Shown here: positions 5,273 to 39,921 of the stretch, piece by piece
How the letters are laid out: each line of letters opens with the position of its first letter
Numbering within the stretch: position 1 is the first letter of the stretch
Assembly: GCA_051362555.1 (NCBI GenBank)
Contig: CM120643.1
Span: forward strand, 4,960,001-5,024,000
Length of the DNA stretch: 64,000 bases
Reading direction: 5' to 3'
DNA from: Lingula anatina
Lineage: Eukaryota > Animalia > Brachiopoda
Made by a program: the position numbers and the translations under genes
The notes under the pieces: model-generated
What the model saw: the letters and a program-made list of their open reading frames with translations, nothing else
Told to the model about the DNA's origin: nothing
Database searches by the model: none

Positions 5273-7639
5273 TTTTCTATCTTTCTCACAAACACACACA
5301 CACACTCACACACACACATTCACACAGAGACAGAAACACACAAAGACATCATTGAGACTTAATGAAAACTTCAGCTTCACTGTAAGGTGCTGCCGCCAAG
5401 TGGATAAAGGAAGCACTACATTGTAAAATGCAGCAATGGGAAGAGCATCCCCAAGCAGTAAAGTATCATATTTTGAAATATAAAAATATGTAACAAACCA
5501 AAGGAAAATTGATTTCTATAATTCATTCAAATAAATTGTTCACACAATAGCACAGGATTCAAACGATTGCGAATGCGCGAAAAGTGCACCGTTTGAAAGA
5601 AACAAGTTGGTGAAATTGATAAAGCCTGCCGGTGTTAAGCCACTGGTTGATTTGATTTAATTTGCCCTCTGGTGTTGTTTTGAAAATAGATATTACAAAC
5701 ATTCTATTGATTTTATGTTTTAAAAAGTAAATCCATTGGAATTTCTTTAGAATAACAGGGATCTTAATTCATGGGTCAAAATCTGGTAGGGCCATTTTGG
5801 CCCACTTGGTTAAAAAAATTTGGGCCATTTTTAAAAAATGTGTAACACAGTGATCAAAATATATGATACATACAGTGACAATAAAGACATAGACAGTGAT
5901 CAGAATACATACAGACACATCCAATATCTCAACAGACAATGCAAAGTCATCAAGATGTATACATGAAAATTTGTTTATACCAGCGAACCCTCGCCCACCA
6001 ATTCTCCAAACAGATAACATTGACCCTTGTCACCTTGAACATATCAAAAACTGATCTGGATCTCAATGACCCATTTACAAATGATAATTTCCCAGTAACA
6101 ACATATAGTGACGATGGTCACAATGGGATTGAATAGAATCACCAGTGTAGCAATATCATTGTTGCACTGACCTTTGCTGATACTGTGTGGTTGTAGAAAG
6201 AGATGGTGAACAGAGGAATTCAACTGTCCTCAGTGTGATGATAATCCAGGAAACACGCCTTCATTTCTACTGAAAACAGATACTAAATCATCAATAAAAA
6301 AAAAATACATATATATATAAATATACAGGTATGTAGACATATACGCTAGTTACAACACATACATGTCTCTAACTCACACGCACACACACACGAACCCTTC
6401 TCTCTTTCTCACACACACATTCACACAGAGAAAGAAACACACCAAGACATCAATGAGATTTAATGAAGACTTCAGCTCCACTGTAAGGTGCTGCCACCAA
6501 GTGGATAAAGCAAGCACTTATATATTATACATACAGTGACAATAAAGACATAGACAGTGATCAGAATACATACAGACACATTCAATATCTCAACAGACAA
6601 TGCAAAGTCATCAAGATGTATACATGAAATTTTGTTTATATTAAGAGTTTTGCCCAGCGAACCCTCGCCCCCCCCCCCCCCCCCCCAACTCCAAACAGAT
6701 AACATTAACCCTTGTCACGTTGAACATATCAAAAACTGATTTGGATCTCAATTACCCATTTACAAATGATAATTTCCCAGTTACAACATATAGTGCCGAT
6801 GGTCACAATGGGATTGAAAAAAATCACCAGTGTAGCAATATCGTTGTTGCACTGACCTTTGCTGATATTGTGGGGTTGTAGAACAAGATGGTGAACAGAG
6901 GAATTCAACTGTCCTCAGTGTGATGATAATCCAGGAAACACACCTTCATCTCTACTGAAAACAGATGATAAATCATCAATAAAAAAAAAAATATATATAT
7001 ATATACAATGCTAAGGCATCAGAATGTATACATAAAATTTTGTCTATATCAAGGTTTTTGCTAAGCGCACAACTCTCTCCCACCCCCACCCAAATATCAA
7101 CAGTTCACATTAACCCTTTATTGTCACCTTGAGCATATCTAAGACCCATTCCCATAGATATTTAGATCGATCTATCCCCCTGGGGAGTCTCAGCTTAACA
7201 GGCTTAAATGTCTGTCCCACCCACTAAAAGCTGTAAGGGGGTAATTAACTATGGTGCGCGCTCGGCTGACTGCAATTTAGCATGAACCCCCAGGGAGTTA
7301 GGTCGATCTAAATCTAAATAACTGGATCAATCTAAATCTCTGGGAATGCACTCTCAAACTGAGTATGCATGATATAATGGCACAATATTAAAGATATAAA
7401 GAGATTTTTCCTCTGATCATGTGTGTTATGTAATTTTTTATTATTTTTAAAATACTGGATAAGCTGAACACTCCTTTGTTTTAACAAAATGTCAAATTTT
7501 TCTGTTTTTGTATTCTAAAAATAATACAACTTTCAAAATTGGCATAAAATTGTGTTTAGTTTTTTAAAATCAATTTTGAAGTTCTTTGAGCTTTTTTAAT
7601 ACTAAATTCTCTATCTCTCTTACCACACAATCCCAAAAA

Positions 7640-7677
<38 letters not shown>

Positions 7678-9845
7678 AACTGACACACACACACACACAC
7701 AAACTTTTTCTATCTTTCTCACAAACACACACACACACTCACACACACACATTTACACAGAGACAGAAACACACAAAGACATCATTGAGACTTAATGAAA
7801 ACTTCAGCTTCACTGTAAGGTGCCGCCGCCAAGTGGATAAAGGAAGCACTACATTGTAAAATGCAGCAATGGGAAGAGCATCCCCAAGCAGTAAAGTATC
7901 ATATTTTGAAATATAAAAATATGTAACAAACCAAAGGAAAATTGATTTCTATAATTCATTCAAATAAATTGTTCACACAATAGCACAGGATTCAAACGAT
8001 TGCGAATGTGCGAAAAGTGCACCGTTTGAAAGAAACAAGTTGGTGAAATTGATAAAGCCTGCCGGTGTTAAGCCACTGGTTGATTTGATTTAATTTGCCC
8101 TCTGGTGTTGTTTTGAAAATAGATATTACAAACATTCTATTGATTTTATGTTTTAAAAAGTAAATCCATTGGAATTTCTTTAGAATAACAGGGATCTTAA
8201 TTCATGGGTCAAAATCTGGTAGGGCCATGTTGGCCCACTTGGTTAAAAAAATTTGGGCCATTTTTAAAAAATGTGTAACACAGTGATCAAAATATATGAT
8301 ACATACAGTGACAATAAAGACATAGACAGTGATCAGAATACATACAGACACATCCAATATCTCAACAGACAATGCAAAGTCATCAAGATGTATACATGAA
8401 AATTTGTTTATACCAGCGAACCCTCGCCCCCCAACTCCAAACAGATAACATTGACCCTTGTCACCTTGAACATATCAAAAACTGATTTGGATCTCAATGA
8501 CCCATTTACAAATGATAATTTCCCAGTAACAACATATAGTGGCGATGGTCACAATGGGATTGAAAAGAATCACCAGTGTAGCAATATCGTTGTTGCACTG
8601 ACCTTTGCTGATATTGTGGGGTTGTAGAACGAGATGGTGAACAGAGGAATTCAACTGTCCTCAGTGTGATGATAATCCAGGAAACACGCCTTCATTTCTA
8701 CTGAAAACAGATACTAAATCATCAATAAAAAAAAAAAATACATATATATATATATATGTAGACATATACGCTAGTTACAACACATACATCTCTCTAACTC
8801 ACACGCACACACACACGAACCCTTCTCTCTTTCTCACACACACATTCACACAGAGAAAGAAACACACCAAGACATCAATGAGATTTAATGAAGACTTCAG
8901 CTCCACCATTAACCCTTGTCACGTTGAACATATCAAAAACTGATTTGGATCTCAATTACCCATTTACAAATGATAATTTCCCAGTTACAACATATAGTGC
9001 CGATGGTCACAATGGGATTGAAAAAAATTACCAGTGTAGCAATATCGTTGTTGCACTGACCTTTGCTGATATTGTGGGGTTGTAGAACAAGATGGTGAAC
9101 AGAGGAATTCAACTGTCCTCAGTGTGATGATAATCCAGGAAACACACCTTCACCTCTACTGAAAGCAGATGATAAATCATCAATAAAAAAAAATATATAT
9201 ATATATAGACAATGCTAAGGCATCAGAATGTATACATAAAATTTTGTCTATATCAAGGTTTTTGCTAAGCGCACAACTCTCTCCCACCCCCACCCAAATA
9301 TCAACAGTTCACATTAACCCTTTATTGTCACTTTGAGCATATCTAAGACCCATTCCCATAGATATTTAGATCGATCTATCCCCCTGGGGAGTCTCAGCTC
9401 AACAGGCTTAAATGTTTGTCCCACCCACTAAAAGCTGTAAGGGGGTAATTAACTATGGTGCGCGCTCGGCTGACTGCAATTGAGCATGAACCCCCAGGGA
9501 GTTAGGTCGATCTAAATCTAAATTTCTGGATCAATCTAAATCTCTGGGAATGCACTCTCAAACTGAGTATGCATGATATAATGGCACAATATTAAAGATA
9601 TAAAGAGATTTTTCCCCTGATCATGTGTGTGTTATGTAATTTTTTATTATTTTTAAAATACTGGATAAGCTGAACACTCCTTTGTTTTAACAAAATGTCA
9701 AATTTTTCTGTTTTTGTATTCTAAAAATAATACAACTTTCAAAATTGGCATAAAATTGTGTTTAGTTTTTTAAAATCAATTTTGAAGTTCTTTGAGCTTT
9801 TTTAATACTAAATTCTCTATCTCTCTTACCACACAATCCCAAAAA

Positions 9846-9925: not shown

Positions 9926-11368
9926 TTTTCTATCTTTCTCACAAACACACACACACACTCACACACACACACATTCACACAGAGACAGAAACACACAAAG
10001 ACATCATTGAGACTTAATGAAAACTTCAGCTTCACTGTAAGGTGCTGCCGCCAAGTGGATAAAGGAAGCACTACATTGTAAAATGCAGCAATGGGAAGAG
10101 CATCCCCAAGCAGTAAAGTATCATATTTTGAAATATAAAAATATGTAACAAACCAAAGGAAAATTGATTTCTATAATTCATTCAAATAAATTGTTCACAC
10201 AATAGCACAGGATTCAAACGATTGCGAATGTGCGAAAAGTGCACCGTTTGAAAGAAACAAGTTGGTGAAATTGATAAAGCCTGCCGGTGTTAAGCCACTG
10301 GTTGATTTGATTTAATTTGCCCTCTGGTGTTGTTTTGAAAATAGATATTACAAACATTCTATTGATTTTATGTTTTAAAAAGTAAATCCATTGGAATTTC
10401 TTTAGAATAACAGGGATCTTAATTCATGGGTCAAAATCTGGTAGGGCCATTTTGGCCCACTTGGTTAAAAAAATTTGGGCCATTTTTAAAAAATGTGTAA
10501 CACAGTGATCAAAATATATGATACATACAGTGACAATAAAGACATAGACAGTGATCAGAATACATACAGACACATCCAATATCTCAACAGACAATGCAAA
10601 GTCATCAAGATGTATACATGAAAATTTGTTTATACCAGCGAACCCTCGCCCACCAATTCTCCAAACAGATAACATTGACCCTTGTCACCTTGAACATATC
10701 AAAAACTGATTTGGATCTCAATGACCCATTTACAAATGATAATTTCCCAGTAACAACATATAGTGGCGATGGTCACAATGGGATTGAATAGAATCACCAG
10801 TGTAGCAATATCATTGTTGCACTGACCTTTGCTGATACTGTGTGGTTGTAGAAAGAGATGGTGAACAGAGGAATTCAACTGTCCTCAGTGTGATGATAAT
10901 CCAGGAAACACGCCTTCATTTCTACTGAAAACAGATACTAAATCATCAATAAAAAAAAAATACATATATATATATATGTAGACATATACGCTAGTTACAA
11001 CACATACATCTCTCTAACTCACGCACACACACACGAACCCTTCTCTCTTTCTCACACACACATTCACACAGAGAAAGAAACACACCAAGACATCAATGAG
11101 ATTTAATGAAGACTTCAGCTCCACTGTAAGGTGCTGCCACCAAGTGGATAAAGCAAGCACTTATATATTATACATACAGTGACAATAAAGACATAGACAG
11201 TGATCAGAATACATACAGACACATTCAATATCTCAACAGACAATGCAAAGTCATCAAGATGTATACATGAAATTTTGTTTATATTAAGAGTTTTGCCCAG
11301 CGAACCCTCGCCCCCCCCCAACTCCAAACAGATAACATTAACCCTTGTCACTTTGAACATAACTAACT

Positions 11369-11404
<36 letters not shown>

Positions 11405-12169
11405 TTTTCTATCTTTCTCACAAACACACACACACACACACACACACATTCACACAGAGACAGAAACACACAAAGACATCACTGAGACTAGCTGAAGACT
11501 TCAGCTCTACTGTAAGGTGCTGCCGCCAAGTAGATAAAGGAATCACTACATTGTAAAATGCAGCAATGGGAAGAGCATCCCCAAGCAGTAAAGTATCACA
11601 TATTGAAATATAAAAATATGTAACAAACCAAAGGAAAGTTGATTTCTATAATTCATTCAAATAAATTGTTCACACAATAGCACAGGATTCAAACGATTGC
11701 CCATGTGCGAAAAGTGCATTGTTTGAAATAAACAAGTTGGTGAAATTGATAAAGCCTGCCGGTGTTTAGCCACTGGTTGATTTGATTTAATTTGCCCTCT
11801 GGTGTTGTTTTGAAAATTTATATTACAAACATTCTATTGATTTTATGTTTTAAAAAGTAAATCCATTGGAATTTCCTTAGAATAACAGGGATCTTTATTC
11901 CTGGGTCAAAATCTGGTAGGGCCATTTTGGCCCACTTGGTCAAAAAAATTGGGCCATTTTTAAAAAATGTGTAACACAGTGATCAAAATATAATATTTCA
12001 TTATAATAAACACATACAGTGACAATAAAGACATAGACAGTGATCAGAATACATACAGACACATTCAATATCTCAACAGACAATGCAAAGTCATCAAGAT
12101 GTATACATGAAATTTATATCAAGAGTTTTGCCAAGCGAACCCTCGCCCCCCAATTCCAAACAGTTAACA
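1..12169. repeat. Complex tandem array, left homogeneous part: ~2.2-2.4-kb units built from exon-like modules, (CA)n/(CT)n/(TA)n microsatellites and one MITE
   Basis: Embedded MITE recurs at 2277, 4700, 7143 and 9347. Near-identical ORFs recur at 5769/10424 and 2706/7570/9776. The sequence at position 1 restarts at 10976, including the same deletion junction (TTGAACATAACTAACTGACAC). Confidence 0.95.
2277..2487. mobile_element. PIF/Harbinger-like MITE, family A (~210 bp); array copies also at 4700-4910, 7143-7353 and 9347-9557
   Basis: Imperfect TIRs (GACCCATTCCCATAGA...TAGATCGATCTA / TCTCTGGGAATGCACTC) with TAA/TCA flanks. Sister modules show the empty site CATATCTAAAACTGA. Confidence 0.75.
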
Positions 12170-12439
12170 TTAAAGATGCATACAAACCGAGTGGGAATCC
12201 CCACTAACGCATATAAACCACTTCTACTAGCTGCTAATACGACGCAAGTAATGCCGACATGCCAAAGGATTAACCTCATTAATCTCTCGTTCGGCTAAAA
12301 AATAGCTGTAAACCTGCAGTTTTCTTAAATTTATGGTTGTAAGTTTAACCTATTTTTCCGACCTCCTGTTCGTAAAAGTCCGCTGAATGACGTAGTAATG
12401 TATGACGTATTGCTGATTTGCATACCCATCAAAACAAAT

Positions 12440-15400
12440 ATGGCGGACGAGGCGGGAGGGAGAAAGAGGAGAGCGAGGAGAAACTTGTTAACTTTATCTG
12501 AAAAAAGAGAAGAAAGCAGGCTTCAGCTCTGAAGATCGCAAAAAGCAGAGTGTACATTGGAGTGGAAATAGAGAGATGGAAAGAATTGAAAGGCAAAATG
12601 GAAGCAAAGACGGACGAAGCGGTAGCCACGTTTCTGCTAGATCGGTAAGTCGTATTTGTCGGCTTTGTTTATGATGTAAATTGGTATCAAGACCACCGAG
12701 TAATTTATCTGGTACACAAATTTCATACGAATATGCTTTCTGTCTTAATAGAATGAGAGAGAAATAGTTCTACCGTCTAGGGCAACCGATGTGTACAAGT
12801 AGTCGTAGTAATACTAGATGACACGTGCAACGCTTTGTTCTCATAAAACCATACGTAGCAGAATCTTATAGATTGCATTCAGTGTTTTACAACGAATGAG
12901 AAATCAGGGTGAGGAGAAGAGGAAGAGCTTGCATTTTAATTGACTGTAACACGGCTGACATAGAAATAGTAATCCCAAACAATATTTAAATTCCCTGCTT
13001 GACAGAGTTCTCATGTGAATTCTAGAGATCTCATCTAATGCATCATATGTATGTCAACATATACCACAAACCACTGACATTAATATATGAATCATATGTC
13101 ATAAAAGCCACATAATATATATCCTGTAAGCAAATAAATGTCAGCGTTTATTACAAATAAAAATATGTTGATATTTGTGATCAGAGAGAGCAAATTAGCT
13201 TTGCCCACATGCTTAGAATTGCACATTTTCCAACATTTGAATGCATTTGCATTCCAATTTCTGACAATGAAATGTTATAAAAAGGTCTAGTAACTGCTTT
13301 TATTATGGAAACATAATATGTATGAATTACTTTTTAAAGAAAATTTTTAAAGGATAATAATTTTGGGAAAAAATAATAAAGCATTGGCAAATATATATTG
13401 TTTTAGGTATGACCTCTCTCAAGCTGCAGTATCTGAGGATCCTGCTGTACCATCTACATCTGGTTTCTCACAGGAGAAGCAGATGCTTTTGGGTCCAGTC
13501 GCCACAGCTGTACCATCAACCTGGGCCAAAACATCTACACCAGACATGAAGATGAAAGGCAAACACATGGTGGAGAAAACACCGTCAGCCTCAGAAATAT
13601 CATCTTGTGAATCAGAGCCGTAAGTTTATCCTTATAAAATATTCTAATTTCAAAATTATGTCTGGCCCTCATAATTATTGTTATAACTCAATCAATGTTG
13701 TCCATCCAATGTTGTTCATCTGATTTTTTTTCTTTAATACATTCAAGTTTCATTTTCCTAATTTTTTTTTAGAATGATGGTGTCAAGATTGGAGCACCTT
13801 TCAAAAGAAGCTGGATCAGATAAAGAGTAGGTTTACATCAAATGAAGTCTTCCTGTTATCAAAGAAAATAATCAGAGCTTTTTAAACTACACTTTAAATG
13901 TGTTTCCTTCCGTGAATCCAGACAAACCCCCTTTCTGCCAATTTTAATTGGTCTTTTTTTCACTTATATAGCTAAATATTAGAACGACCATATAATTCCT
14001 GCTTTGTCTCATTGGTTAATCCTAGATAATTTGTAATTTAGGATATAGGTGCTTATTTCATTGCTGTTTCATATGATGTTTAAAAATCCATTACAGGAAA
14101 AGTGAAGGAAAAGCTCAAGCCTCTGGCATCCGTGCACATAAACCTACTGAGCTGTCTGATTCCTTCTGTGATCCCTTCAAGTGAGTTTTTTTTTAATCTT
14201 GTGAAGAGAGAGGTGTAGAATCCTACAATATTTACACATTAGAAATCATTAATTTGTGTTGATTGATAGTGACATATACTGAATGATGATTTGTCTCATT
14301 TTTGCTAATTGCAACACCTTATAATTGCAGTTTGTCAATAGACATTCATGTGGAGAATCCTGAAATTGAAGTTAGTGGTGATGATGAAGAGGAGGACCCA
14401 GATTACGACCCAGCTATTGACATTTATGCTGTATTGTAAGTATTTTTTATGTATTTTTCAAGTAAAAGATTACAATGCCAAATAAATGATAGAAATACAG
14501 TTCGAAAGATTTATGTCATGCAATTGCCTAATGGGCTCAGGTATTGCACTAAATGTTTACAGGAAAAATGTCCCACTTTTTTATTCTTATTTCTTTGTAA
14601 ATTTGCGCAATTCACCAAGCATCTCCTCAATTACCATGAAAGTGTGTATATAAAAATTGAATGTTAGTATTATCATTAAAGATGCTTGACTAATGTCATT
14701 CATTCTCATTTTAGTAAAAAGATGTAAGTACATTGTTTAATATAATGATTTATAACATTTACACAATCAGACCTGATGGCGTAGTCCAGATAGCACCTGA
14801 TGTATCCTTTGAGGAGATGGATTTTGGGTTTGAGATCCCAGGAGGTGATGGAATTATAGAGAATGAAGAGGACACTGCACCATCTCCACCAGGAATCAGG
14901 CGTATTGAAAGTGACGAGGACTGTGAAGATATAGTCAATGCAACAAAATGTTTTGTCTTCGTGGAACAGTTGATGCAACTGGCTAGAATATACATTCCAA
15001 ATTGTGCATCTTGTAAGAAACCCACAGAGATAAAGGAATCTTACGTTGGTTCAGCCTTATACCTCAAGTGGGTATGTATTTACCATAAATTTGAAAGTCA
15101 CCCTGTTTTTAACATGTGCATTTTATGACTGTTGTTCATGTAGGAATGTTCCTTGTAGGCTGCTATGAAAATATATCAGCAAAATTTAAGTTCTTTAGCC
15201 CTGCATAATGATTCTCTACACATTAACCACTCTAGTACGTCTATTTCTATGGAAGTTGGAGCAACCATTGTGCACATTATTTTGTTATTATGGACCAGCA
15301 GAAATGAAAGTGTAATTTATTTATAGGTATGTGACTCTGGGCACTTAAGTGGTCAGTGGTGCACACAGCCGCATCTCAACCGCAGACTTCACAGCGGAGA

Positions 15401-18042
15401 TTTTTTAATGTCGGCAGCCATACTGACCTCCGGCAACAATTTTAGCAAGATGTCTATGTGGGCTGACATGCTGAATGTTAGATTCACGTCTGCTGATCAA
15501 TTCATGAAGATCAGCAGAACATACATCATCCCAACTATTGACAAGCACTGGGAGGAACACCAGAAACAGGTGTTGAATGAAATGAAAGAAAAAGATGTAG
15601 TTGTTTTAGGTAGGTACAGATTTTATATGCATGGTAGCAAAAACAAATGTTCTGATAACATTGGCTGTATAATGATTGTTAGTCTTTTAGATGAGTTCAG
15701 GCATTGCATTTCTCATATAATCATAAATCAGCAAAGACTAAAGTTTATTTTAGTATACACTTATAGAAATTATGAATCATAATAAAAAGAATGTTTTTGT
15801 GCAAATGAAACAATTTTTATTAAATATATTATTGAATACTATAACGATCTAAGTGGCAATGAAATGAATGTTTTAATTTATGATTTTTTATTGAATTGTG
15901 TTATCTGCATATGCGTTATAATCTTGTTTTGTAGGTGATGGCAGAAACGATACGCCAGGTCACAGTGCTCAATACTGCACGTACACACTTATGGACAATG
16001 ACACAAAAAAAATTCTCACGGTCCATACGTTAGATAAAAGAATGACGGACCGTAAATCAGCAAACATGGAAAAGGCTGGGTTTATTGCCGCCATGAGAGA
16101 GTTACAAGCCAAAGAAATAAAGATTGTAGAGGCTGTTACTGATGCCCATATTGGGATAGGTGCAGTAATGAGTAAGCACTTTTTCACTAACACTTGTCAC
16201 TGAAATTTTGATCTGTATATATTCTGCGTTCACAAAATTTAGTATTAAATTATTCATGCGAAGGGTAGTATTTTTTTTGTCCTCTTACACATTTGGTTAC
16301 ATGACTTTATTTTGACATTGTTCAATTTTATTTTCAGAAAGTGAATATCCCGGCATTAAACACTCACATGATATTTGGCATGTGGCAAAGAATCTGGGAA
16401 AAAAACTGGTCAAGGTATGTCAAAAGTACACGCACCTGTGTTGGATTTCTAACATGGTCAACATGTAAATTGAGTAATGTTATATTTATGAATAACTATC
16501 CAAGAAATTATCCCTCTCTTCTTGCTCAATTATAATCGAAAGTAATGTAAATGCCTATACCTAATAAGGTGCACCCATGCATTTGTGTTTCTTGTAATAG
16601 GTCGCTCAGAAGAAGGGTAATGGTGTTCTCCTGAAGTGGTGTAGGGATATTGTTAACCATTTCTGGTTTTCTTGCAAAAAGGCTGAAAGCTATCCATCAT
16701 TTGTGGTGAGTAATGTTAGGTTACTTTCATGTCAGTTTTGCTCATGTCATTTTCCCATTAGTAAATTATATTGATGTTTTGAGATCAATTATTCAGATGG
16801 AAGTTGCATTGAAGCGAAATCATTTTTTTTCTTTTCAAAAAGGTTTTATTCTAACATTTGTATGTTGCAATGTAGTTTTTAAGACGCGCTTGTAAGTGTA
16901 TGTTATAAAATATAATCTCTGTGCATGTCTGTTGCACTAAATCCCCATGAATCTGGTGTTCTGCCTATGACTGCCAAAACTAAAGAATCAGGTTATTTTA
17001 AATCTTAAATTTTTGTAATATCAATGCATTGTTTTTCTATTGTGTTCACTGAGTAATTGTAAGTTTAAATTGCTTGTTATAGAGTATCTGGAGAAGTGTG
17101 CTTAACCACATCACAAACCAACACGAGTGGATTTTGTCTTACGGAGGAGTGAACCATTGCCTCCATGAGCCACTTACAGAAGACGAAGTAAGGGACAAGG
17201 AGTGGCTTTCCCCTTCAGAACATGCCCATGTGTTGAAAGACTTGGCTTCAGTTGTCCTAGATAAAAGGCTTCTGAAGAATGTTGGGTATTATCTCAATTT
17301 TAGGTAAGCAATCCACATAGGGCACGGGAAAGTAGAAGCTTATGATAATTTTTGTAAAATTGGTTTGAGTCAAAGGATATCAAATGTCATAAGCACTATA
17401 ATGCACCCGTTATATATTTTATATATGTATTACAGCTTCAGTTAATGGTAGACTATAAATTATCTTTGCTTCCCTTTTAGGAGTACAGCAGAGTTGGAGG
17501 GTTTCCACCAACATCTACTAATGTATTGTGCCAAGCGCTTTGCTTACACACCACCCGTGTACAGGGCACGCAACAGGTTGGCTGCACTGGACCATAACTT
17601 AAATTTGGATAGGCCAGTGGAGGTGAATAGAAATGGAGAAGTAAGGTAAGAAAATTGATTTGCTGTAGACATCTCAAGGCAATATTTCATTAAAAAGACT
17701 TGATTTTTTATGCAAATCTAGAAAAAAATGAATGCAGTTTTATTTACAATCTTGACACATTTATTGGAGTTCATATTTCTTTCAAGGTACCACAGAGTGT
17801 ACAATAAAAAAAGTGGACGCTGGACAGTGCACCCAGTCAAGTCCAGGAAACAGTATGGATACATCAAGGCTCTGCATTCTGACGCTGTCAAAATGAGGAT
17901 TCAGGATCCCATTGGAATGCAGAAGACAGTTTTAGAAGAAAATGACCCCAGGCGCATTTCCAAAGTCCTTGCACCCATTCAGCCTCCTCCAACTCAGCAG
18001 CTGGTGCTGGAGAAGAAGTCCAGATTTACTGTCAATGAGTAA
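12440..18042 (+). CDS. Kolobok DDE transposase, 13 exons, ~768 aa; one 1-nt frameshift in exon 1 (A6 run at 12501-12506)
   Basis: Manually spliced GT-AG exons with matching phases: 12440-12644, 13407-13619, 13773-13826, 14097-14180, 14331-14435, 14771-15071, 15327-15609, 15935-16171, 16338-16414, 16601-16705, 17083-17303, 17481-17645, 17787-18042. Motifs: CxxC...WVCDSGH zinc-binding module, GDGRNDTPGHSAQYCTYT (D1), VTDAH (D2), HDIWH, NHFWFSC, STAELEGFH (E), YCAKR, LAALDHN. Confidence 0.9.
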
Positions 18043-18331
18043 AAGGTTCTAAGACCTTTTTCAACTGAGAACAAATGACACAAACACAAGGAGATCTTGA
18101 GCAAAATGTTCATAAGTTTGGCACTGGAATCATATAACAGTAATTGTGTAGCACAAGCTGTATGTTTTCCTTATTCTTAGCTTACCACCGCCTCACATCA
18201 TTCAGAGGAGAACCTTTCAGCAGTTAAAATAGTGAATCTGAAGAGGTGATTTGGTTGTGACTGAACAAACATAACACACAATATGTTTATGAGATGTGTG
18301 GGTCTATCACATTAAAAACTTTAAAAAAAAC

Positions 18332-18458
18332 TGTGCTAAATAATTACTAAGAATTGAGGGAGTTCTAACTAGCTTGTGCTAAATAATTACTATTAATTGA
18401 CAAGAGTTCTAACTAGCTTGTGCTAAATGATTACTACTAATTGACGGAGTTCTAGCTA
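18332..18458. repeat. 44-bp tandem repeat (3 copies) immediately downstream of the KolX stop codon
   Basis: TGTGCTAAATAATTACTA...GAGTTCTAACTAGCT is repeated three times. Confidence 0.8.
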
Positions 18459-20390
18459 GCCAATCCTGTTAGGAATAAACCCCCTATAATGTCCATAGGC
18501 ATCTGGAAATTTGTCTCTAATTGCCCACACAGAGCAGGATGGGATTACTCTCCTGTTGCCAGCCCCTAGATGACCGTGGACCCACAGCGTAAATTGTCTA
18601 TACGCTTGATATCTGTTAGCTTTTGTGTTGTTTTCTTCATCGTCTAGAGCCAGAACATCCCTTCTGTAAAGTCTTGCAAGGTTCAATACCCCCTCATCTA
18701 AGTTGAGAACAGAGAAGTCCTGTAAAATACAAGAACATTACATTACTTAACTGGTAGATGTGATGATAAGGTTTGCAACTGTATGTAAGCATATGTACAC
18801 CACTGAAAACGAGTATGTTCAAGTCACAAGTGGTTTAAGTCAACTCAGCAAATTGTATTTAGTCTGTCTCACTTAATTTGAAAAAAAACTTGTCAAATAT
18901 GCCTTAAAGTAATGTTTATTTTGAATAAAATATTTTGCTGAAATTTCACTTACTGGTAATAATGTAATGCAGTTTTCCTTTCCACAACACTGTTTTTCAA
19001 TGTCTGTTGGCATCTCTCTACATTTCTGGCACACACACCAGGATGGTGATGCCACATCAGGCTGTGGATGGTATCCACCTGGCTGTGGCACTGGAGGCTG
19101 TAACAGGTCAAATACAAGACTGGGATGCTTCTCAGCCATAGACAAACATATGTCCCTTAACTGGGCAACATCCATTTTAGAAATAGCATTCTGAAAAATA
19201 AGCAGTAGATTTAAAAATAAATAGTTTATGCAAATCTGCCTTGCCAAATGTCTTATTCATTCTTGATTTTCCTTAAGATCATCAACATACAGTAATTCCC
19301 TAGTGCTCAAAACTTTTGGATAGTATTGGATTGCAATCTATGTCATTAATGAGTTCTTCTCAACTATAGCAGGGATTTTAGAGAGGTGTGTTATTCAGAG
19401 ACAAATCAGATGATGTTTTCATTGCAGATTACCCTGCCTTTTTGCCAAATTACAAATAAATAAATACATAAATAATTTTAAAAAACAGTTTAGCAGAACA
19501 TATACCTAATACAAATTACCAAAATTGAATAACCTTCTCTTACCCTCATTGTTTCTTGTCTTTTCAAAAGATTTTCCGCAGCAACTTCTGCCACCTGGTC
19601 CCTCGATGATCTCTGTGAAGATCTGCTTCTACTAGATAGCCTGCTAACTCCTCTTCCTCTTCTACCTCTTCCACCCCTTTCTCTACCACCTCTGCTTCTA
19701 CCTCTTCGCCATCTACCTGTACTTGGTCTTACAGCTTCCTCAGTACTCTCTGCACTACTACTAGTACTACTTGATCTAAAACCTGGCAAAATTTCACTTT
19801 CCTGAAAAAAAGTCCAATAATGATTCAAATAGTAGGTTAACAAAGAATGTACGGTTATGAGAAAATACACGTACTTTTGTACATAAATCTGCATTTTGCC
19901 CTTAATCCAAAATAATAATAATAATCATAATAAATGGTGAGAGAACACTGCTGAATTCAACTTCAGCACGATATTATATAATGTACTATGTTACAACTAC
20001 ATGTAATTGTGGTACTTAGCGTGCGATGGTACGTTACCCGAGGGATATACATATATATCAGAGCAGAATCTACTCGTTTTTCACAGAAAAACACCCCTCA
20101 AGCCCCCAAAATGCGTATATCGCCACGCTCACATAACATCTCTTGATATTTAATTCTTACATGTATTCTTCCGTAAACTTCGCAGCCATTTACTTGTAGA
20201 ACCCAAAACACATTTCTATCGATAAATTGCAGAAACACAAGCTCTTGTGTGTGAATGTTTCTGAGAAGACCTACCAGACTTTAGACAATAATGCTGGCTA
20301 CTAAACTACTGATTTACAACGATCAAACGTCTACGCATTAAACGTATTCGTGAACAAAACAACGGAGAAAAACATTGTACTCACCGCCAT
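18456..20390 (-). CDS. KolX-type accessory protein with a P2X7 intracellular (ballast)/nanor-like Cys-rich domain, 4 exons, 254 aa
   Basis: Phase-0 exons: 20390-20385 (ATGGCG|GTGAGT), 19801-19544, 19190-18954 and 18719-18456, giving an uninterrupted ORF. Motifs: [61 protein letters not shown], and GHYRGF. Confidence 0.9.
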
Positions 20391-20585
20391 GCTTGCCTTT
20401 ATTTTCGTTTACCTAATATGGAACTAGTTGCGCGCGCATCAACTCCATCTATGGACATAGCTGCGCGCGCTTATTTAAATAAGCCTTTACGGAAACTGCC
20501 GAGAGTTATTAATAGCATAGAGAAAAATGCAGAAAAAAGCTGTTTAAATGCTATTTTCCGGAAATATTAAGCGTTATATCTCTAA

Positions 20586-20800
20586 CACCCCATTCTCATA
20601 GATTAGATCGACCTACATTGGATCGACCTAACTCCCTGGGGATTCACGCTAAATAGCTGTCAGCCGGGCGGACACGAAAGTTAATTACCCCTTAAAGCTT
20701 GTAGTAGGCGGGGACGGACACTTAAGAGGGATTATCTGACAGTAATCTAGTGAGACTCCCCGCGGTGATAGATCGATCTAAAAGTTGTGAGAACAGAGCC
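20586..20800. mobile_element. Family A Harbinger-like MITE nested in the Kolobok right subterminal region
   Basis: TAA flanks at 20583-20585 and 20801-20803, TAGATCGA subterminal motifs, and homology to 2277-2487 in the opposite orientation. Confidence 0.75.
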
Positions 20801-21757
20801 TAAGATATGCTATATGGAACTATGTGGTGGCATTTGGACGGGATTTATGGCACAAAATTTGGCTTAGTATGCATCTTTAACCCTTGTAACCTTGAACATA
20901 TCAAAAACTGATTTGGATCTCAATGACCCATTTACAAATGATAATTTCTCAGTTACAACATATAGTGGCGATGGTCACAATGGGATTGATTAGAATCACC
21001 ATATTGTAGCAATATCGTTGTTGCACTGACCTTTGCTGATACTGTGTGGTTGTAGAACGAGATGGTGAACAGAGGAATTCAACTGTCCTCAGTGTAATGA
21101 TAATCCAGGAAACACGCCTTCATTTCTACTGAAAACAGTTAATAAATCATCAATAAAAAAATACATATTTATATATATGTAGACATATACGGTAGTTACA
21201 ACACAGACATCTCTCTAACTCACACGCACACACAAACCCTTCTCTCTTTCTCTCACACACACACACATTCACACAGAGAAAGAAACACACCAAGACATCA
21301 TTGAGACTTAATGAAGACTTCAGCTTCACTGTAAGGTGCTGCCACCAAGTGGATAAAGAAAGCACTACATTGTAAAATGCAGCAATGGGAAGAGCATCCC
21401 CAAGCAGTAAAGTATCATATCTTGAAAAAGAAAATATGTAACAAACCAAAGGAAAATGAAGAAATTGATTTCAATAATTTATTCAAATAAATTGTTCACA
21501 CAATAGCTCAGGATTCAAACGACTGCGCATGTGCAAAAAGTGCACTGTTTGAAATAAACAAGTTGGTGAAATTGACAAAGCCTGTCGGTGTTTAGCCACT
21601 GGTTGATTTGATTTAATTTGCCCTCAGGTGTTGTTTTGAAAATTTATATTACAATTTTACAAACATTCTATTGATTTGAATTCAGCTGTTCTCAGTGTGA
21701 TGATAATCGTGGATATGCACCTTCATCTCTACTGAAAACAGATAATAAATCATCAAT

Positions 21758-21798
<41 letters not shown>

Positions 21799-22135
21799 AG
21801 ACACATACAGAGACAATTAAGACATTTTATCTATATCAAGATTTTTGCTAATCAAACCGTTGTCCCCAAAGGCCGAAAATTTTACATTAACCCTTGTGAC
21901 CTTGAACATACATAAAACTGAGTGGGATATATAAGTGACCCTTTTCCAAAATGATAATTTTTCAGGTACAACATATAGCGGCAATGGTCACAATGGTCAC
22001 CTGTGTAGCAATATCCTTGTTGCACTGACCTGTGCTGATGATGCTGTGAGGTTGAGATGGGTTCAGCTATCCTCAGTGTGACGATAGTCCAGGAAACACA
22101 CCTTCATCTCTACTGAATCAGATAATACATCATCA

Positions 22136-22448
22136 ACTAAAAAAGCACACCGAGAGCATAGACCTCTGCCAAGGCAGCAAAGTCTCCACCCAATGCCTTT
22201 CACCCCTAAATTTTAATTCTATAATGATAAAGTTTTTTGATTTTTGATTATTGATTGACTAATGATCCAGATCACCACCAAAAAGTAATCATCTGTTCCT
22301 TGGCCCACTTCTGACAGTTCCAGAAAATTTCATCAAAATCGGTCCATAACTTTTTCTGTAACGTTGCTAACAGACAGACAGACAGAAAGACAGATAGACA
22401 GACAGGCAAACTAACAGAACCAAAAACATAACTTCCTTGGTGGAGGTA
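22136..22448 (+). mobile_element. Short non-autonomous Helentron/Helitron2-type element (HINE-like)
   Basis: Inserted in the array motif CATCAA|TAAAA without a TSD. It has an (ACAG)n microsatellite followed by the terminal hairpin ACTTCCTTGGTGGAGGT. Confidence 0.7.
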
Positions 22449-22754
22449 ATAAAAAATAAATATGTAGACACATACACTAGTTATAACACAGAAATATCAC
22501 AGTGATTAAAATATATTATTATATTATATAATAAACACATACAGCAACAATAAAGACATAGACGGTGATGAGAACAGTACAGACACATTAAATGTCACAA
22601 CAGACAATGCACAGGTATCAGAATGTATATATGAAAAAATTTTGTCCATAAAAATAATTATGCTAAGCAAACCCTCACCTCCCCAACTTCGAACAGTTCA
22701 CATAAACTCTTGTCACCTTAAAAAAATATATATATATAACTGAGTGGGATCTAA

Positions 22755-22952
22755 TACTGAATTCCCAATGATTTAGATCGATCCATCTGGATTGACCTAA
22801 CTCATTGGGGGTTCACGCTAGTGCGCACAGAAGTTAATTACCCCTTACAGCTTTTAGTAGTCAGGACAGACATTTAAGCCGGCTAATCTGACAGTAATCT
22901 AGTGAGACTCCCCACGGGGTTAGATCGATCTAAAATCTGTGGTAATGCACTG
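22755..22952. mobile_element. Family A Harbinger-like MITE
   Basis: TAA flanks on both sides; homologous to 20586-20800 and 39696-39921. Confidence 0.7.
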
Positions 22953-22955
22953 TAA

Positions 22956-23118
22956 GGCTTCATTCACATGGAAAATCTATTTTCTAAAAATTGAGAATTA
23001 ATTACAGCTTTGGAAGTAACTGGGTCGCGCTGCCAGTAATTATGCCGCGGGGTATTCAGGGCACAGACCGTGATCACAAGATACCGCAAATAGAAAATAG
23101 GTTCATATGAACGGCCCC
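22956..23118. mobile_element. Second Harbinger-like MITE (family B, 163 bp)
   Basis: TAA flanks and imperfect TIRs (GGCTTCATTCACATG..CTATTTTCTA / TAGAAAATAG..CATATGAACGGCCCC). Confidence 0.65.
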
Positions 23119-25400
23119 TAAGTGACCCTTTTCAAAAATAATAATTTCTCAGGTACAACATATAGTGGCAATGGTCACAATGGGATTGAAGAGAATCGCC
23201 AGTGTAGCAATATCGTTGTTGCACTGACCTGTGCTGATGATGTAAGGTTGAGATGAGTTCAGCTGATCAGAATACATACAGACTCATTCAATGTCACAAC
23301 AGACAATGCATAGGCATCAGAATGTACACATGAAATTTTGTCCATATAAGGACCTTTGCTAAGCGCACACCAGCCCCCAATTCCCAACAGTTCACATTAA
23401 CCCTTGTCACCTTCAACATATCTAAAACTGATTTGGATCTAAGTGACCAAAATGAGAATTTCTCTGGTACAACATATAGTGGCGATGGTTGCAATACGAT
23501 TGAGAAGAATCACCAGTATGGCAATATCGTTGTTGCACTGACCTTTGCTGATACTGTGAGGTTGAAGAACTAGATGGTGAACAGATGAGTTCAGATGTCC
23601 TCAGTGTGACGATAATCCAGGAAACACACCTTCATCTCTACTGAAAACAGATAATGCATCATCAATAAAAATATATATATGTAGACACATACAGTAGTTA
23701 TAACACAGAAATAACACAGTGATCAAAATATATTATTATATTATATAAATAACACATACAGCAACAATAAAGACAAAGACAGTGATAAGAATACATATAG
23801 ACACATTCAACGACAAACAGACAATGAACAGTCATGAGAATTTATTTATGAAATTTTGTATGTATAAATATATTTGCTAAGCGCATCCCCCCCCCCCAAC
23901 CCCGAACAGTTTACATTAACCCTTGTCACCTTGAATATATATAAAACTGAGTGGGATCTAAGTGTCCTTTTTCCTAAATGATAATTTCTCAGGTACAACA
24001 TATTATAATAAACACATACAGCAACAATAAAGACATAGATATTAGAATACATACAGACACATTCAATGTCTCAACAGACAATGCACAGGCAGCAAGGTGT
24101 ATACTTGACATATTGTTTATATCAAGATTTTTGCTAAGCAAACCCCCCCTCTCTCAACAGTTCACATTAACCCTTGTCACCTTGAACATATTAAAATCTG
24201 ATCTGGATCTCGATGACCCATTTACAAATGATAATTTCCCAGTTATAACATATAGTGGCGATGGTCACAATGGGATTGAATAGAATCACCATATTGTAGC
24301 AATATCCTTGTTGCACTGACCTTTGCTGATGCTGTGAAGTTGAAGAAGTAGATGGTGAACAGATGAATTCAGCTGTCCTCAGTGTGATGATAATCCTGAA
24401 TATGCACCTTCATCTCTACTGAAAACAAATAATTAATCATCAATAAAATATATACATATATAAAAGACATATAATGTCCTTACAACACAGACATAACACA
24501 GTGATTAAAATATATTACTATACTATAATAGACATACTGGTATATACAGCGACAATAAAGACATTTTGCCTATATCAAGATTTTTGCTAATCAATCCCTT
24601 GCCCCCAGAGGCCGAAAAGTTTACATTAACCCTTGTTACCTTGAACATATATAAAACTGAGTGGGATATATTAGTGACCCTTTTCCAAAATGATAATTTT
24701 TCAGGTACAACTTATAGCGGCAATGGTCACAATGGGATTAAAGAGAATCGCCAGTGTAGTAATATCATATTGTTGTAGTGACCTAGCTGTGATGAGGCTG
24801 CGAGGTTGAGATGAGTTCAGGTGTCCTCAGTGTGATGATAATCCAGGAAACACACCTTCATCTCTACTGAAAACAGATAATATATCATCAATAAAAATAT
24901 TTATAGACACATAATCTTAAAAAACTTTCTTTAGTAGGGTTATTCACTTGCAGATATTTTTCTCTTAATTCTGTATATGCTACACGTCATTAAAAAATGG
25001 TATTCGTCTTCAACATCATAAATATTATGTTTTTTACAGATGAAACAGAGTCTATTGCATCTTTCTATACCTCACCATTTAGTAGGTGATTTGCACATCT
25101 GAATCTTGCTAGTGAGGTTCTGTGTTTTACATTTTTAACGCTTAATAAGTAACACTCCAGTGTTAATGTACTCTTAAATAATGAATAAGTATCCAGTTTG
25201 CTGCTCCTACATATGTCACTGTGCCATATTTGGCCAGCATAATCTACTAATCATTCTCTGAAAACTTTAATAAATAAAACAGAATTTCCCACATCCTGAG
25301 CCTCCGAGACATATCCAAATCCATATCTGTATAACAGTGTTTTAACATCTGTGGCCCAAGTGGGCCTTCCACTTGAATCTAATTTAAATAGCATATCATA

Positions 25401-36071: not shown

Positions 36072-38231
36072 AACTAGAGGATCAGAGAGGCGATACCACC
36101 TCCAGATATTGTACCACCAGCTGGAGTAAGCGCATTCGTATGGACCCCCCCCCCCCCCCAAAAAAAAAGGGACACCACTACCGGTCTTGTGCTTGACAAG
36201 AGATAAAAGGGAACCAAAATTTGCAAAATTCAATTCATCATGAAAAGTAGGTCAAAGGTCAATTTCAAGGTCACACTTAGATTTGCCAGTATATGACTTC
36301 CTATCCAAGTTCAATAGTAACTATGGACCTATCTCTGCCAGTTTTGAAAGTATAAGCATTAAAAAAGTTGCAAAGTTCAGTTTATGGTGTAAAGTAGGTC
36401 AAAGGTCAATTTCAAGGTCAAAGTAAGATAACAAGTATACGACTTCCTATTCAACATCAATAGTAACTATGGACCTATCTCTGCCAGGTTTGGAGTTAAA
36501 AGGAAAAGAAATTAGCAAAGTTCAGTTCATGGTGAAAAGTAGGTCAAAGGTCAATTTTAAGGTCACAGTAAATTGCCTCTAATGACTTTGTATTCAAATT
36601 CAATAGTAACTATGGGCGTATCTTTGCCATTTTTAGAGATAAAGGGAACCAAAATTTGCAAAAATAAGTGCATGGTGAATAGTAGGTCAAAGGTCAATTT
36701 CAAGGTCACACTTAGATTGCCAGTATATGACTTCCTATTCAAGTTCAATAGTAACTATAGACCTATCTCTGCCAGTTTTGGAGATAAAGGGGAACAAAAA
36801 TTTGCAAAGTTCAGTTTATGGTGTAAAGTAGGTCAAAGGTCAATTTCAAGGTCACTTAGATTGCCAGTATATGACTTCCTATCCAAGTTCAATAGTAACT
36901 ATGGACCTATCTCTGCCAGTTTTGTAGATAAAAGGGAACAAATATTTGCAAAGTTCAGTTCATGGTGAAAAGTACTTCAAAGGTCAATTTCAAGGTCACA
37001 CTTAGATTGCCAGTATATGACTTCCTATCCAAGTTCAATAGTAACTATGGACCTATCTCTGCCAGTTTTGTAGATAAAAGGGAACAAAAATTTGCAAAGT
37101 TCAGTTCATGGTGAAAAGTAGGTCAAAGGTCAATTTCAAGTTCACATTTAGATTGCCAGTATATGACTTCCTATTCAACTTCAATAGTAACTATGGACCT
37201 ATCTCTGCCAGTTTTGGAGATAAAAGGGTACCAAAATTTGCAAAGTTCAATTCATGATGAAAAGTAGGTCAAAGGTCAATTTCAAGTTCACATTTAGATT
37301 GCCAGTATATGACTTCCTATTCAAGTTCAATAGTAACTATGGACCTATCTCTGCCAGTTTTGGAGATATAAGGGACTAAATGTTATAATTTTGGAGTTAC
37401 TATAATGTGCCATAAATTTATTAAAATAAAGAAAAGGTCATTTTGGTTGAAATTCTTGAAATGGGAGGTGCTCAGAAGTTCCAGATGTTCACATTTCATG
37501 AAATAATGTCATTTTTGACCAGAGGTTATCTGCCTCACCAAGCCTTATGTTTTATTTTCCCAGGGTTCAAAATTTAGTATCTATTACTGTACTGCACATT
37601 TTGCTTTCACCACCAATACCTACTTTTTGATACAGCGTAACTCGAAAACCGTATGGAATACAAAAAAACGGAGACCACTTGCAGTGTTGGGCTTTACATG
37701 CTCTACAAAATGCAAAAAAGATTGGGTCTCTAGCATTAATGGTTCCCGAATTAGAGACAGTTTTCAGTTTCGGTATCTTATGGCCGCAACTCCCGTGAAA
37801 ATGCACCAATTGACCCCAAATTCACGGTGATGAAAGATGACCCGAAGGGTAACTCTTTCCAATAATATTATTGGTTAAGTCTGTGTAGTGTCTGAATAAC
37901 AGCGCAAATAATTTTTTTTTCATAAAAAATTTTGTTTTTTTGAAAATTTTGGCCCGTTTGACCTTGAAATAAAGGTTAAAGGTCAAATCCAAGGGCATAT
38001 TTGAAATCTACACATATGACTTTTGGAAAGCCATCTGTAGAAATTTTTCCCATATTTCCTTCCGTAGGGTAGATAATTAGCATTTAATTTTGCCATTTTT
38101 GGACAAGGGTGCATTGCAATGAGTGCCACACCTAGACCCCAGCACCGACAAAGCCCAAATTTTACGTGAAATGAGTTAAATTATAGGTGACCTAAATCCA
38201 AGAGATGGGTACGTAGGCCCTAGTAGTCTAG
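36072..38231 (+). mobile_element. Helentron-type non-autonomous element with ~8 copies of the 146-bp unit
   Basis: Same head as 29604. Unit spacing is 146 bp (GGTC at 37121 and 37267). The 3' body is homologous to 31551-32365. Confidence 0.72.
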
Positions 38232-38234
38232 TAG

Positions 38235-38563
38235 TAACACATGTAAACCACTTCTACTATTTTCTTATATCACTCAAATAAATTCGACATACCCAGGAAT
38301 AAACTGAATAAATCACTTGATCAGCCATAAAAGAGGCTTTAGACTGCTCCTTTCTTTAAATTTTTGGTCGGAAATTTAACCTACTTTCGTGACCTACTTT
38401 TCTTCCCCATTGACGTACAGCATAGAATGCTAGAAGAAAAATCCGTTCAAACATCATTTTCGGGTAAAACTTAACAATGGTAATTCTCTTAGTTATACTA
38501 CTTGAAACTATATGCTGGCATTTGGTTGGTTTTTGTGGCAAAAAAATGAGTTTGTATGCATCT
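38235..38563 (+). mobile_element. Non-autonomous Kolobok derivative with a truncated left tip
   Basis: Ends in TTTGTATGCATCT followed by TTAA (38564-38567). 38419-38563 aligns with the right end of 12174-20876. TAAACCACTTCTACTA matches the left subterminal region at ~12214. Confidence 0.75.
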
Positions 38564-38567
38564 TTAA

Positions 38568-38780
38568 GGGCGCATTCCCATAGATTTTAGATCGATCTAT
38601 CCCCGTGGGGAGTCTCTCTAGATTACTGTCATATAATCCGGCTTAAATGTCCGTCCCGCCTACTGCAATCTGTAAGAGGGTAATTAACTTTCGTGCCCGC
38701 TCGGCTGACAGCTATTTAGCGTGAACCCCAGGGAGTTAGGTCGATCTAGTTGGATCGATCTAATCTCTGGGAATGGGGTC
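38568..38780. mobile_element. Family A Harbinger-like MITE
   Basis: TAA TSD; ends GGGCGCATTCCCATAGA / TCTCTGGGAATGGGGTC. Confidence 0.8.
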
Positions 38781-38951
38781 TAAGATTTATTGAGCTTTTT
38801 AAACACTAAATCCTTTTTCTTCTCACACCCACCCACAAACACACAAATGCACACTCTCTCACACATACACAATAATTTTCTTCTACAGACACATGATTTG
38901 AAAAATGTGGAGATTTTACATTAAGTGTGGTCTCTCTTTTCTTTCTTCTCT

Positions 38952-39695: not shown

Positions 39696-39921
39696 GGGTG
39701 CTTTCCCAGAGATTTAGATCGATCTAAAGATTAAGTTTTAGATTGACCTTACTCCCTGGGGGTTCATGCTAAATTGCAGTCAGCCGAGCGGGCACCATAG
39801 TTAATTACCCCCTTACAGCTTTTAGTAGGCGGGACAGACGCTTAAGCCGGCCAAGCTGACAGTAATCTGGTGAGACTCCCCACAGGGATAGATCAATCTA
39901 AAAATCTATGGAAATGGGGTG
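39696..39921. mobile_element. Family A Harbinger-like MITE
   Basis: Homologous to the other family A copies; TAA/CAA flanks. Confidence 0.75.

What the first reader, a model, noticed from the sequence alone, without database searches (positions are those of the whole stretch)
12174..20876. Complete two-gene Kolobok transposon: DDE transposase plus a convergent P2X7-ballast-like protein
Seen: a TTAA TSD, short AG...CT TIRs, an empty-site motif recoverable from neighbouring array units, and two tail-to-tail spliced genes whose starts lie near each terminus. Known: Kolobok elements have TTAA TSDs and RR..YY ends and encode a transposase plus a second protein (KolX) of unknown function. Inference: this is a young, nearly autonomous, probably uncatalogued family. 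It is a two-component mobile system in which the accessory protein's role (regulation, targeting or host manipulation) is unresolved. It is hidden in the ORF track because it is split over 17 small exons.
Basis: partly seen in the sequence, partly recalled or inferred. Interest (0 to 1): 0.85.

Follow-up and report, generated by a model that had tools for sequence, protein, structure and literature searches.

The report
Kolobok transposon with ribbon-helix-helix-like head
This is a complete but frameshifted copy of a known two-gene jumping gene (Kolobok, whose helper gene's kinship to the P2X7 receptor tail is already published); the new point is that its transposase starts with a small domain predicted to be a paired DNA-gripping fold known from bacteria and plants rather than animals.

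Summary
In detail: an 8,703-bp element with TTAA duplication, AG...CT inverted ends, a 13-exon DDE transposase gene and a convergent 4-exon gene for a 254-aa P2X7-ballast protein. It is a Kolobok element of the KolX-carrying (Kol0) type. KolX = ballast fold was published in 2022, and this scan has noted such elements before (21 notes, at least 7 other genomes). The KolX gene matches an NCBI Lingula anatina model.

Corrections: the transposase has a one-base frameshift in exon 1, also in a second sample's contig. A 215-bp Harbinger-like MITE sits in the right end. The insertion is shared by 4 of 4 DNA runs, with no sign of an identical second copy. None of the 15 splice junctions appeared in four RNA runs. 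So this copy cannot supply full transposase.

New point: the transposase has no THAP domain. It begins with a conserved 48-aa module predicted to form a ribbon-helix-helix (TCP-like) homodimer (complex score 0.58, best control 0.08; fold matches weak). It likely binds the element's ends. KolX keeps all seven zinc cysteines but only 2 of 5 GDP-site residues; its role stays inferred.

The parts
12170..12173 (.). Left TTAA target-site duplication
   Evidence: flanks rejoin as an array unit
12174..12187 (+). Left terminal inverted repeat (starts AG; holds the palindrome ATGCAT at positions 3-8)
12440..12644 (+). Transposase exon 1; ATG 266 bp from the left end; one-base frameshift in the A run at 12501-12506
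   Evidence: no gap here in contigs of X1 and X7
12502..12645 (+). 48-aa N-terminal module: basic helix, strand, two helices; predicted ribbon-helix-helix/TCP-like homodimer
13407..14435 (+). Transposase exons 2-5 (13407-13619, 13773-13826, 14097-14180, 14331-14435): acidic, mostly disordered linker
   Evidence: low pLDDT in the homologue's model
14771..15609 (+). Transposase exons 6-7 (14771-15071, 15327-15609): conserved Cys/His region (CxxC...WxCxxGH) before the core
15935..18042 (+). Transposase exons 8-13 (15935-16171, 16338-16414, 16601-16705, 17083-17303, 17481-17645, 17787-18042): catalytic D 15937, D 16141, DxxH 16370-16381, H2CH finger in exon 11, E 17497, stop 18040-18042
   Evidence: RNase H fold of a homologue's model
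18043..18455 (.). 413-bp gap between the two stop codons, with three 43-44-bp tandem copies (18317-18445) and an inverted partner at 18130-18159
18456..20390 (-). KolX gene, 4 exons (20390-20385, 19801-19544, 19190-18954, 18719-18456), intact, 254 aa: Ser/RG-rich basic N-terminus, helical linker, ballast domain with 7 Cys
20586..20800 (.). Nested 215-bp MITE with TAA duplication (20583-20585, 20801-20803), Harbinger/Tourist-like ends, decayed
20863..20876 (-). Right terminal inverted repeat (ends CT; 12 of 14 match the left)
20877..20880 (.). Right TTAA target-site duplication
38203..38563 (+). Gene-less 361-bp relative of the element: 72-75% to both ends, perfect right TIR plus TTAA, decayed left end, no nested MITE

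Best explanation
It is a full-length, KolX-carrying Kolobok DNA transposon inserted at a TTAA in a tandem array, whose transposase gene is frameshifted in this copy, and whose intact form likely moves by cut-and-paste, gripping its ends with a predicted ribbon-helix-helix dimer while KolX likely acts as a zinc-stabilised nucleic-acid-binding helper. Shown: ends, target duplication, both gene models, DDE residues, frameshift, ballast match (about 0.95). Predicted: the head module folds as an intertwined two-strand, four-helix dimer in place of THAP (about 0.7). Inferred: the dimer reads two-fold sites in the ends, such as the ATGCAT palindrome in the TIR, and helps pair the ends (about 0.45). 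Inferred: KolX works in the nucleus on the transposition complex, using a conserved arginine pocket and its RG-rich tail to bind DNA or RNA backbone, much as the second protein of Harbinger elements does (recalled analogy; about 0.4). This copy could move only with transposase from another copy, but can still supply KolX.
For: Ends and empty sites. Transposase: 44% over 769 columns to an oyster protein, 63-72% in the core to clam and oyster proteins; DxxH in 115 of 120 homologues; a homologue's model matches ISCth4 (IS256/Mutator-like), Hermes and P transposases, E 3.5e-6 to 8e-4. Its first core segment has 37 of 55 residues identical to Kolobok_1_PiPr, counted by eye. KolX: PF20478 E 8.8e-17, P2X7 structures E 1e-8, 7 Cys kept in 94-100% of covering rows among 160. 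Head module: found in 41 of 48 long homologues, and in 12 homologues outside the training set; monomer pLDDT 88; 10 of 10 Foldseek rows are TCP or VapB chains; all 8 of 50 VIA rows with rmsd up to 2.4 A are NikR, MazE, PcfF, VapB or StnY (their RHH class is recalled, TCP = RHH is from a read passage). Homodimer score 0.58 against best control 0.08, runs share at least 97% of contacts, pLDDT at least 81, closest contacts 17-17, 16-18 and 45-45, as in an RHH dimer (the mark was reached by 21 of 30 solved microbial homodimers and 0 of 23 monomers; in eukaryotes 17 of 29, animals 7 of 16, and 0 of 30 monomers). KolX pocket: R203 97%, R208 90%, R223 92%, R235 94% conserved; N-terminal 88 aa pI 11.9.
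Against: The fold matches of the head are not significant on their own (Foldseek E 5-9.9, VIA Z at most 3.9, top rows are unrelated helices). The dimer pass may come from memory of solved RHH dimers: only 1 of 7 eukaryotic pairs without an older solved relative reached the mark. No DNA binding was tested. The ends share nothing beyond the 14-bp TIR (score 26.5 against shuffled 25.3 +/- 6.5), so no array of binding sites was found. Only 24 of 70 long KolX relatives have an RG-rich tail. No KolX-transposase fusion among the 15 longest relatives scanned. No splice junction in RNA. The place in Kol0 rests on motifs read by eye, not on a tree with Repbase rows.
Confidence: 0.7

Rival explanations
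1. KolX is a guanine-nucleotide-binding cofactor: it supplies in trans the GTP dependence that P-element transposase has built in (recalled), tying transposition to cell state.
For: P2X7 ballast binds GDP through R546, H547, R574, R578, K583 (passages of PMC7016195). Across 160 relatives the first, second and fourth are kept (R 97%, H 74%, R 94%). P transposase is among the fold neighbours.
Against: This copy keeps 2 of 5 (H547 is Y, R574 is V, K583 is D); V and D are the family norm (85%, 65%), so half of the phosphate cage is absent or acidic.
Confidence: 0.2
2. KolX acts on the host, not on the transposase: a chromatin anti-silencing or copy-number control factor, helped by the tail-to-tail layout.
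For: The stops lie 413 bp apart with an inverted repeat between them; KolX has stayed intact while the transposase broke; the zebrafish relative nanor was proposed to act in transcription control (passage).
Against: No transcript of either gene was seen. One intact 765-bp gene beside one hit in 2.3 kb is what chance allows.
Confidence: 0.25
3. The head module is just a helical nuclear-localisation and oligomerisation segment, not a DNA-reading RHH domain.
For: No Pfam family, no named Atlas cluster, fold scores at noise level; the first helix is a basic NLS-like run.
Against: The alternating R-V/I-x-I/L-G strand and both helices are conserved from bivalves to fish; predicted contacts centre on the strand; no other DNA-binding domain such as THAP was found.
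Confidence: 0.25
4. The locus is an active young autonomous element and the frameshift is an assembly slip or a private allele.
For: The break is in a six-A run; contigs of X2 and X3 over this region carry a net 7 and 1 extra letters at places not shown; samples differ by about 0.1%.
Against: Contigs of X1 (possibly the source) and X7 have no gap there; the left junction is bridged without a break in 4 of 4 runs, against identical extra copies; no spliced reads.
Confidence: 0.2

Closest known systems
Kol0 (Kolobok0) lineage of Kolobok DNA transposons, type Kolobok-1_XT; nearest listed row Kolobok-1_PiPr (Kojima and Bao 2022, PMC9587614; I saw abstract, background, section 10, passages, and parts 104-106 of supplement 3)
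   Same: TTAA duplication, RR..YY ends, DDE with DxxH, zinc finger before the last E, no CCHC finger after the first D, second gene for a ballast-fold KolX.
   Different: 17 exons; no THAP; predicted RHH-like head; exon-1 frameshift; nested MITE. Lingula does not occur in that paper's text-readable supplements. Figure 4 and Figure S6 are pictures and were not seen.
Xenopus XKol transposases (PMC6004289; passages seen)
   Same: AG ends, TTAA, DDE and H2CH motifs, similar length (about 730-800 aa).
   Different: [quoted passage not shown]
P2X7 cytoplasmic ballast / nanor / ZCD proteins (Pfam PF20478; PMC7016195, passages seen)
   Same: Seven zinc cysteines, R546 and R578 equivalents, 32-38 bits to solved P2X7 chains.
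   Different: Free-standing, no channel; RG-rich basic N-terminus; G-x-L-G-x-G-x-R loop; H547, R574 and K583 replaced.
Ribbon-helix-helix DNA-binding domains: plant TCP (5ZKT), NikR, MazE, VapB, PcfF
   Same: Predicted strand-helix-helix chain and strand-centred homodimer; like TCP it has a basic segment in front.
   Different: No detectable sequence homology (3-21% in the fold rows); fused to an animal DDE transposase; DNA binding untested. A plant classification preprint lists RHH among classes absent from mammals.

Membership tests
Kolobok superfamily | TTAA target-site duplication | tested here: met
   12170-12173 and 20877-20880; single site in sister array units
Kolobok superfamily | 5'-RR ... 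YY-3' termini (unlike piggyBac) | tested here: met
   AG...CT, 10-bp perfect TIR
Kolobok superfamily | DDE triad with C/DxxH between second D and E | tested here: met
   D 15937, D 16141, DIWH 16370-16381, E 17497
Kolobok superfamily (all but Kolobok1) | Zinc finger between DxxH and last E | tested here: met
   H..H..C.H in exon 11, aligned with homologues
Kol0 lineage | Second gene for KolX with 7 zinc cysteines of the ballast fold | tested here: met
   PF20478 E 8.8e-17; C140, 142, 145, 156, 157, 162, 229
Kol0 lineage | Placement of the DDE core in the Kol0 clade | tested here: inconclusive
   Signature shared with Kolobok_1_XT, _1_BF, _1_NV, _1_PiPr rows, read by eye; no tree with those rows was built; my tree holds unnamed-family homologues only
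KolobokP, E, D, 5 | CCHC finger after the first D; nuclease accessory or long direct repeats | tested here: not met
   No such finger in exon 8, no long terminal direct repeat
THAP-bearing Kolobok transposases (XKol type; usual, not defining for the superfamily) | N-terminal THAP domain | tested here: not met
   No Pfam hit in exon 1 or THAP in 6 homologues; THAP-like pattern in 0 of 120
piggyBac | YY..RR ends and DDD triad | tested here: not met
   Ends are AG..CT and the triad ends in E
MULE/Mutator | 8-11-bp variable TSD, long TIRs (recalled), Pfam MULE above cut-off | tested here: not met
   4-bp TTAA, 14-bp TIR; homologues score 12-24 bits, below cut-offs
Ribbon-helix-helix domain | Strand-helix-helix chain forming a homodimer through an antiparallel ribbon | tested here: inconclusive
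   Prediction supports it (0.58 vs 0.08); fold scores below significance
Ribbon-helix-helix domain | Ribbon reads DNA in the major groove | not testable with these tools
   Needs binding assay or structure
P2X7-type GDP-binding ballast | R546, H547, R574, R578, K583 | tested here: not met
   2 of 5 in this copy, 3 of 5 in the family consensus
Autonomous element | Unbroken transposase reading frame | tested here: not met
   30-aa product from the ATG; next ATG at 12598 lies inside the head module

The most novel reading that the evidence does not exclude
A large clade of animal Kolobok transposases has replaced THAP with a ribbon-helix-helix (TCP-like) dimeric DNA-binding head, a fold class not listed for mammals, and has handed it to host zinc-finger proteins: fish fusions of this transposase with C2H2 arrays appear in my hits, and from recall the N-termini of human ZNF692 and ZNF653 show the same pattern, which would make them Kolobok-derived RHH factors (untested here).
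Probability: 0.45. Interest if true: 0.75.

Novelty: new variant of a known kind. Interest (0 to 1): 0.5.

Why it matters
As an element it is an ordinary new family of a described lineage, and this copy is disabled. Two things give it value. First, it supplies clean ends, an intact KolX and a nearly whole transposase, so the open question of what KolX (the source of the P2X7 ballast) does can be tested directly. Second, the predicted RHH-like head would explain how THAP-less Kolobok transposases from bivalves to fish recognise their ends, and would place a bacterial/plant-type DNA-binding fold in animal genomes by way of a transposon.

Tried and rejected
No whole genome is held, so no genome-wide copy count. 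RNA: 4 raw-read runs (6-26% of each read) gave 0 of 15 junctions; nearly all reads fall on the nested MITE, and a few unspliced reads come from 90-95% relatives. No RNA holder was listed in the index. Rfam: 0 matches in 11000-23500. Profile of 71 transposases against PDB sequences: nothing real; the 39-row profile only pulled C2H2 fingers from fused rows. Atlas: unnamed small eukaryotic clusters only, no named hit. Rescue of the frameshift by a cryptic intron: no consensus donor between ATG and break. A composite element 12174-38563 (14 of 14 TIR match) was rejected because only the 20877 flank continues the array. Shared subterminal motifs: none above shuffles. Tree: quick method only, 25 of 31 chosen rows (6 dropped for lack of a parsable core), no outgroup, so horizontal transfer was not tested. 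KolX was not folded and a KolX-transposase complex was not run. Literature searches: Kolobok+KolX 1 paper; Lingula anatina+Kolobok 0; Kolobok with ZNF692 or ZNF653 0 of 9 listed; RHH/TCP with transposase or transposon, no listed title on a Kolobok link (listings only, 25 of 341 shown). The P2X7 structure paper is not held. Repbase and Dfam could not be searched; Figures 4 and S6 of PMC9587614 may bear on clade names.

Full report
Ends and site. The element runs 12174-20876 between two TTAA copies; it starts AG, ends CT, and its first 10 bases form a perfect inverted pair, 12 of 14. A 10-base pair next to TTAA is not rare alone (8 pairs among 621 TTAA sites). The proof is the flank: left and right sides rejoin as one unit of a tandem array of about 2.4 kb, 91-95% like its neighbours. 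The empty motif occurs 8 times by exact pattern, 3 with TTAA and 5 with TTGA. Beyond the TIR the two ends are no more alike than shuffles.

Transposase gene. Thirteen exons with GT-AG introns give one open frame of 747 aa behind a break in exon 1. Read through with X, the 768-aa protein aligns end to end with oyster and scallop proteins at 44%, starting at the same Met, which shows that the break is a one-base frameshift in the A run at 12501-12506. As it stands the ATG gives 30 aa. The catalytic D, D, E, the DxxH motif and the H2CH finger are intact. tblastn of homologues marks exons 1 and 6-13 independently; exons 2-3 have no such support. A model of homologue P0019 (pLDDT 81) matches ISCth4, Hermes and P-element transposases, the group that shares DxxH with Kolobok. 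The core carries the signature of the Kolobok_1_XT group in Data S5 of PMC9587614, with 37 of 55 identities to Kolobok_1_PiPr in the first segment, counted by eye. In a quick tree of 25 cores it groups with clam, mussel and snail proteins (67-70% identity) and then Priapulus.

Second gene. Four exons on the minus strand give an intact 254-aa protein. It equals NCBI model XP_013391824.1 of Lingula anatina except that this model keeps 27 aa of intron 3, which full-length homologues lack; this names the likely host. It hits Pfam P2RX7_C and solved P2X7 chains. Kojima and Bao (PMC9587614, passages) already report that KolX of the Kol0 lineage has the ballast fold and gave rise to the P2X7 tail and nanor. 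The family is large: 3,370 representatives at E 0.001. All seven zinc cysteines are kept. Of the five P2X7 GDP residues (PMC7016195) this copy keeps two; R574 is V and K583 is D in most relatives, while four arginines and a G-x-L-G-x-G-x-R loop are 84-97% conserved. I read this as a phosphate-binding pocket that need not be GDP-specific; that is inference.

State of this copy. One 8,484-base contig of run X1 (possibly the source) covers 12086-20569 without a difference; X2, X3 and X7 also bridge the left junction, so 4 of 4 runs share the insertion and none shows a break there that an identical second copy would cause (inference from contig structure). Listed pieces differ by 10 letters in about 8,100 (X2) and 10 in about 7,700 (X3). 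X7 shares the frameshift; X2 and X3 have 7 and 1 gap letters in that contig at places not shown. Short pieces at 86-91% point to older relatives, and depth near the left end is far higher than inside, fitting many gene-less derivatives. One lies at 38203-38563. Its right end aligns across the position of a 215-bp MITE nested at 20586-20800 with a TAA duplication (score 113 without the MITE, 83 with it). Without the MITE both start codons lie 266-268 bp from their ends. Four RNA runs showed 0 of 15 junctions; the tissues are unknown and only 6-26% of reads were read.

The head module. Kolobok transposases usually carry THAP (PMC6004289, passages). This one does not. Exon 1 instead codes a conserved basic helix, an R-V/I-x-I-G strand and two helices, present in 41 of 48 long homologues, partly by construction, and in 12 homologues outside the training set. 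The monomer model has pLDDT 88. Fold matches are weak, but all 10 Foldseek rows and all 8 low-rmsd VIA rows of 50 are TCP or bacterial RHH proteins (class of the bacterial rows and identity of the 7VP entries as TCP recalled). Two copies were predicted to pair with score 0.58 against a best control of 0.08, contacts centred on the strand and the last helix (counts and cautions under Best explanation). The TIR holds a six-base palindrome, a natural but untested site for such a dimer. My searches found no paper or earlier scan note on this point, but most subscription papers and Repbase notes were not searchable.

Verdict. The element is a new family of the KolX-bearing Kolobok type, noted by this scan in at least 7 other genomes, and this copy is frameshifted and apparently silent. 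The variant feature is the predicted RHH-like head in place of THAP. KolX most likely helps the transposition complex bind nucleic acid, with GTP cofactor and anti-silencing roles as rivals; none is shown.

Noticed in passing
window 38203-38563: Gene-less 361-bp relative of the element; its right TIR matches the element's left TIR at 14 of 14; a MITE has inserted directly into its TTAA (38568-38785).
   Followed up: yes
window 20586-20800, 38568-38785, 39738-39903, 22750-22941, 2266-2445, 4689-4868, 7132-7311, 9336-9515: A very abundant MITE family with TAA/TTA duplications and GG...CC-type ends (Harbinger/Tourist-like, label recalled); common in transcripts in many contexts.
   Followed up: partly
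window 1-24900: Tandem array of about 2.4-kb compound units with internal sub-repeats, some units carrying the MITE.
   Followed up: partly
window 18130-18159 and 18317-18445: Three 43-44-bp tandem copies with an inverted partner between the two stop codons; could fold in either 3' UTR.
   Followed up: no
proteins P0090, P0122, P0127, P0128: Fish proteins in which a whole transposase of this clade is joined to C2H2 zinc-finger arrays; may be true fusions or gene-model joins.
   Followed up: partly
proteins P0019 and P0295: Oyster transposase LOC111134747 and KolX LOC111134773 lie on contigs of identical length with close locus numbers, perhaps one element.
   Followed up: no
protein P0104: A second, more distant Lingula transposase of the same clade with the same head module, annotated as a 703-aa protein.
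   Followed up: no
protein P0244: Ballast domain behind leucine-rich repeats in a 624-aa protein, another possible capture of KolX.
   Followed up: no
window 15937-17499 versus P0075, P0087, P0092: Core identity of 67-70% to bivalve elements is high for a brachiopod; horizontal transfer is possible but untested.
   Followed up: partly
window 30099-30747, 36200-37375, 55474-57228, 59153-64000: 146-bp satellite blocks, a G-rich 353-bp array and a compound 55/129-bp array.
   Followed up: no
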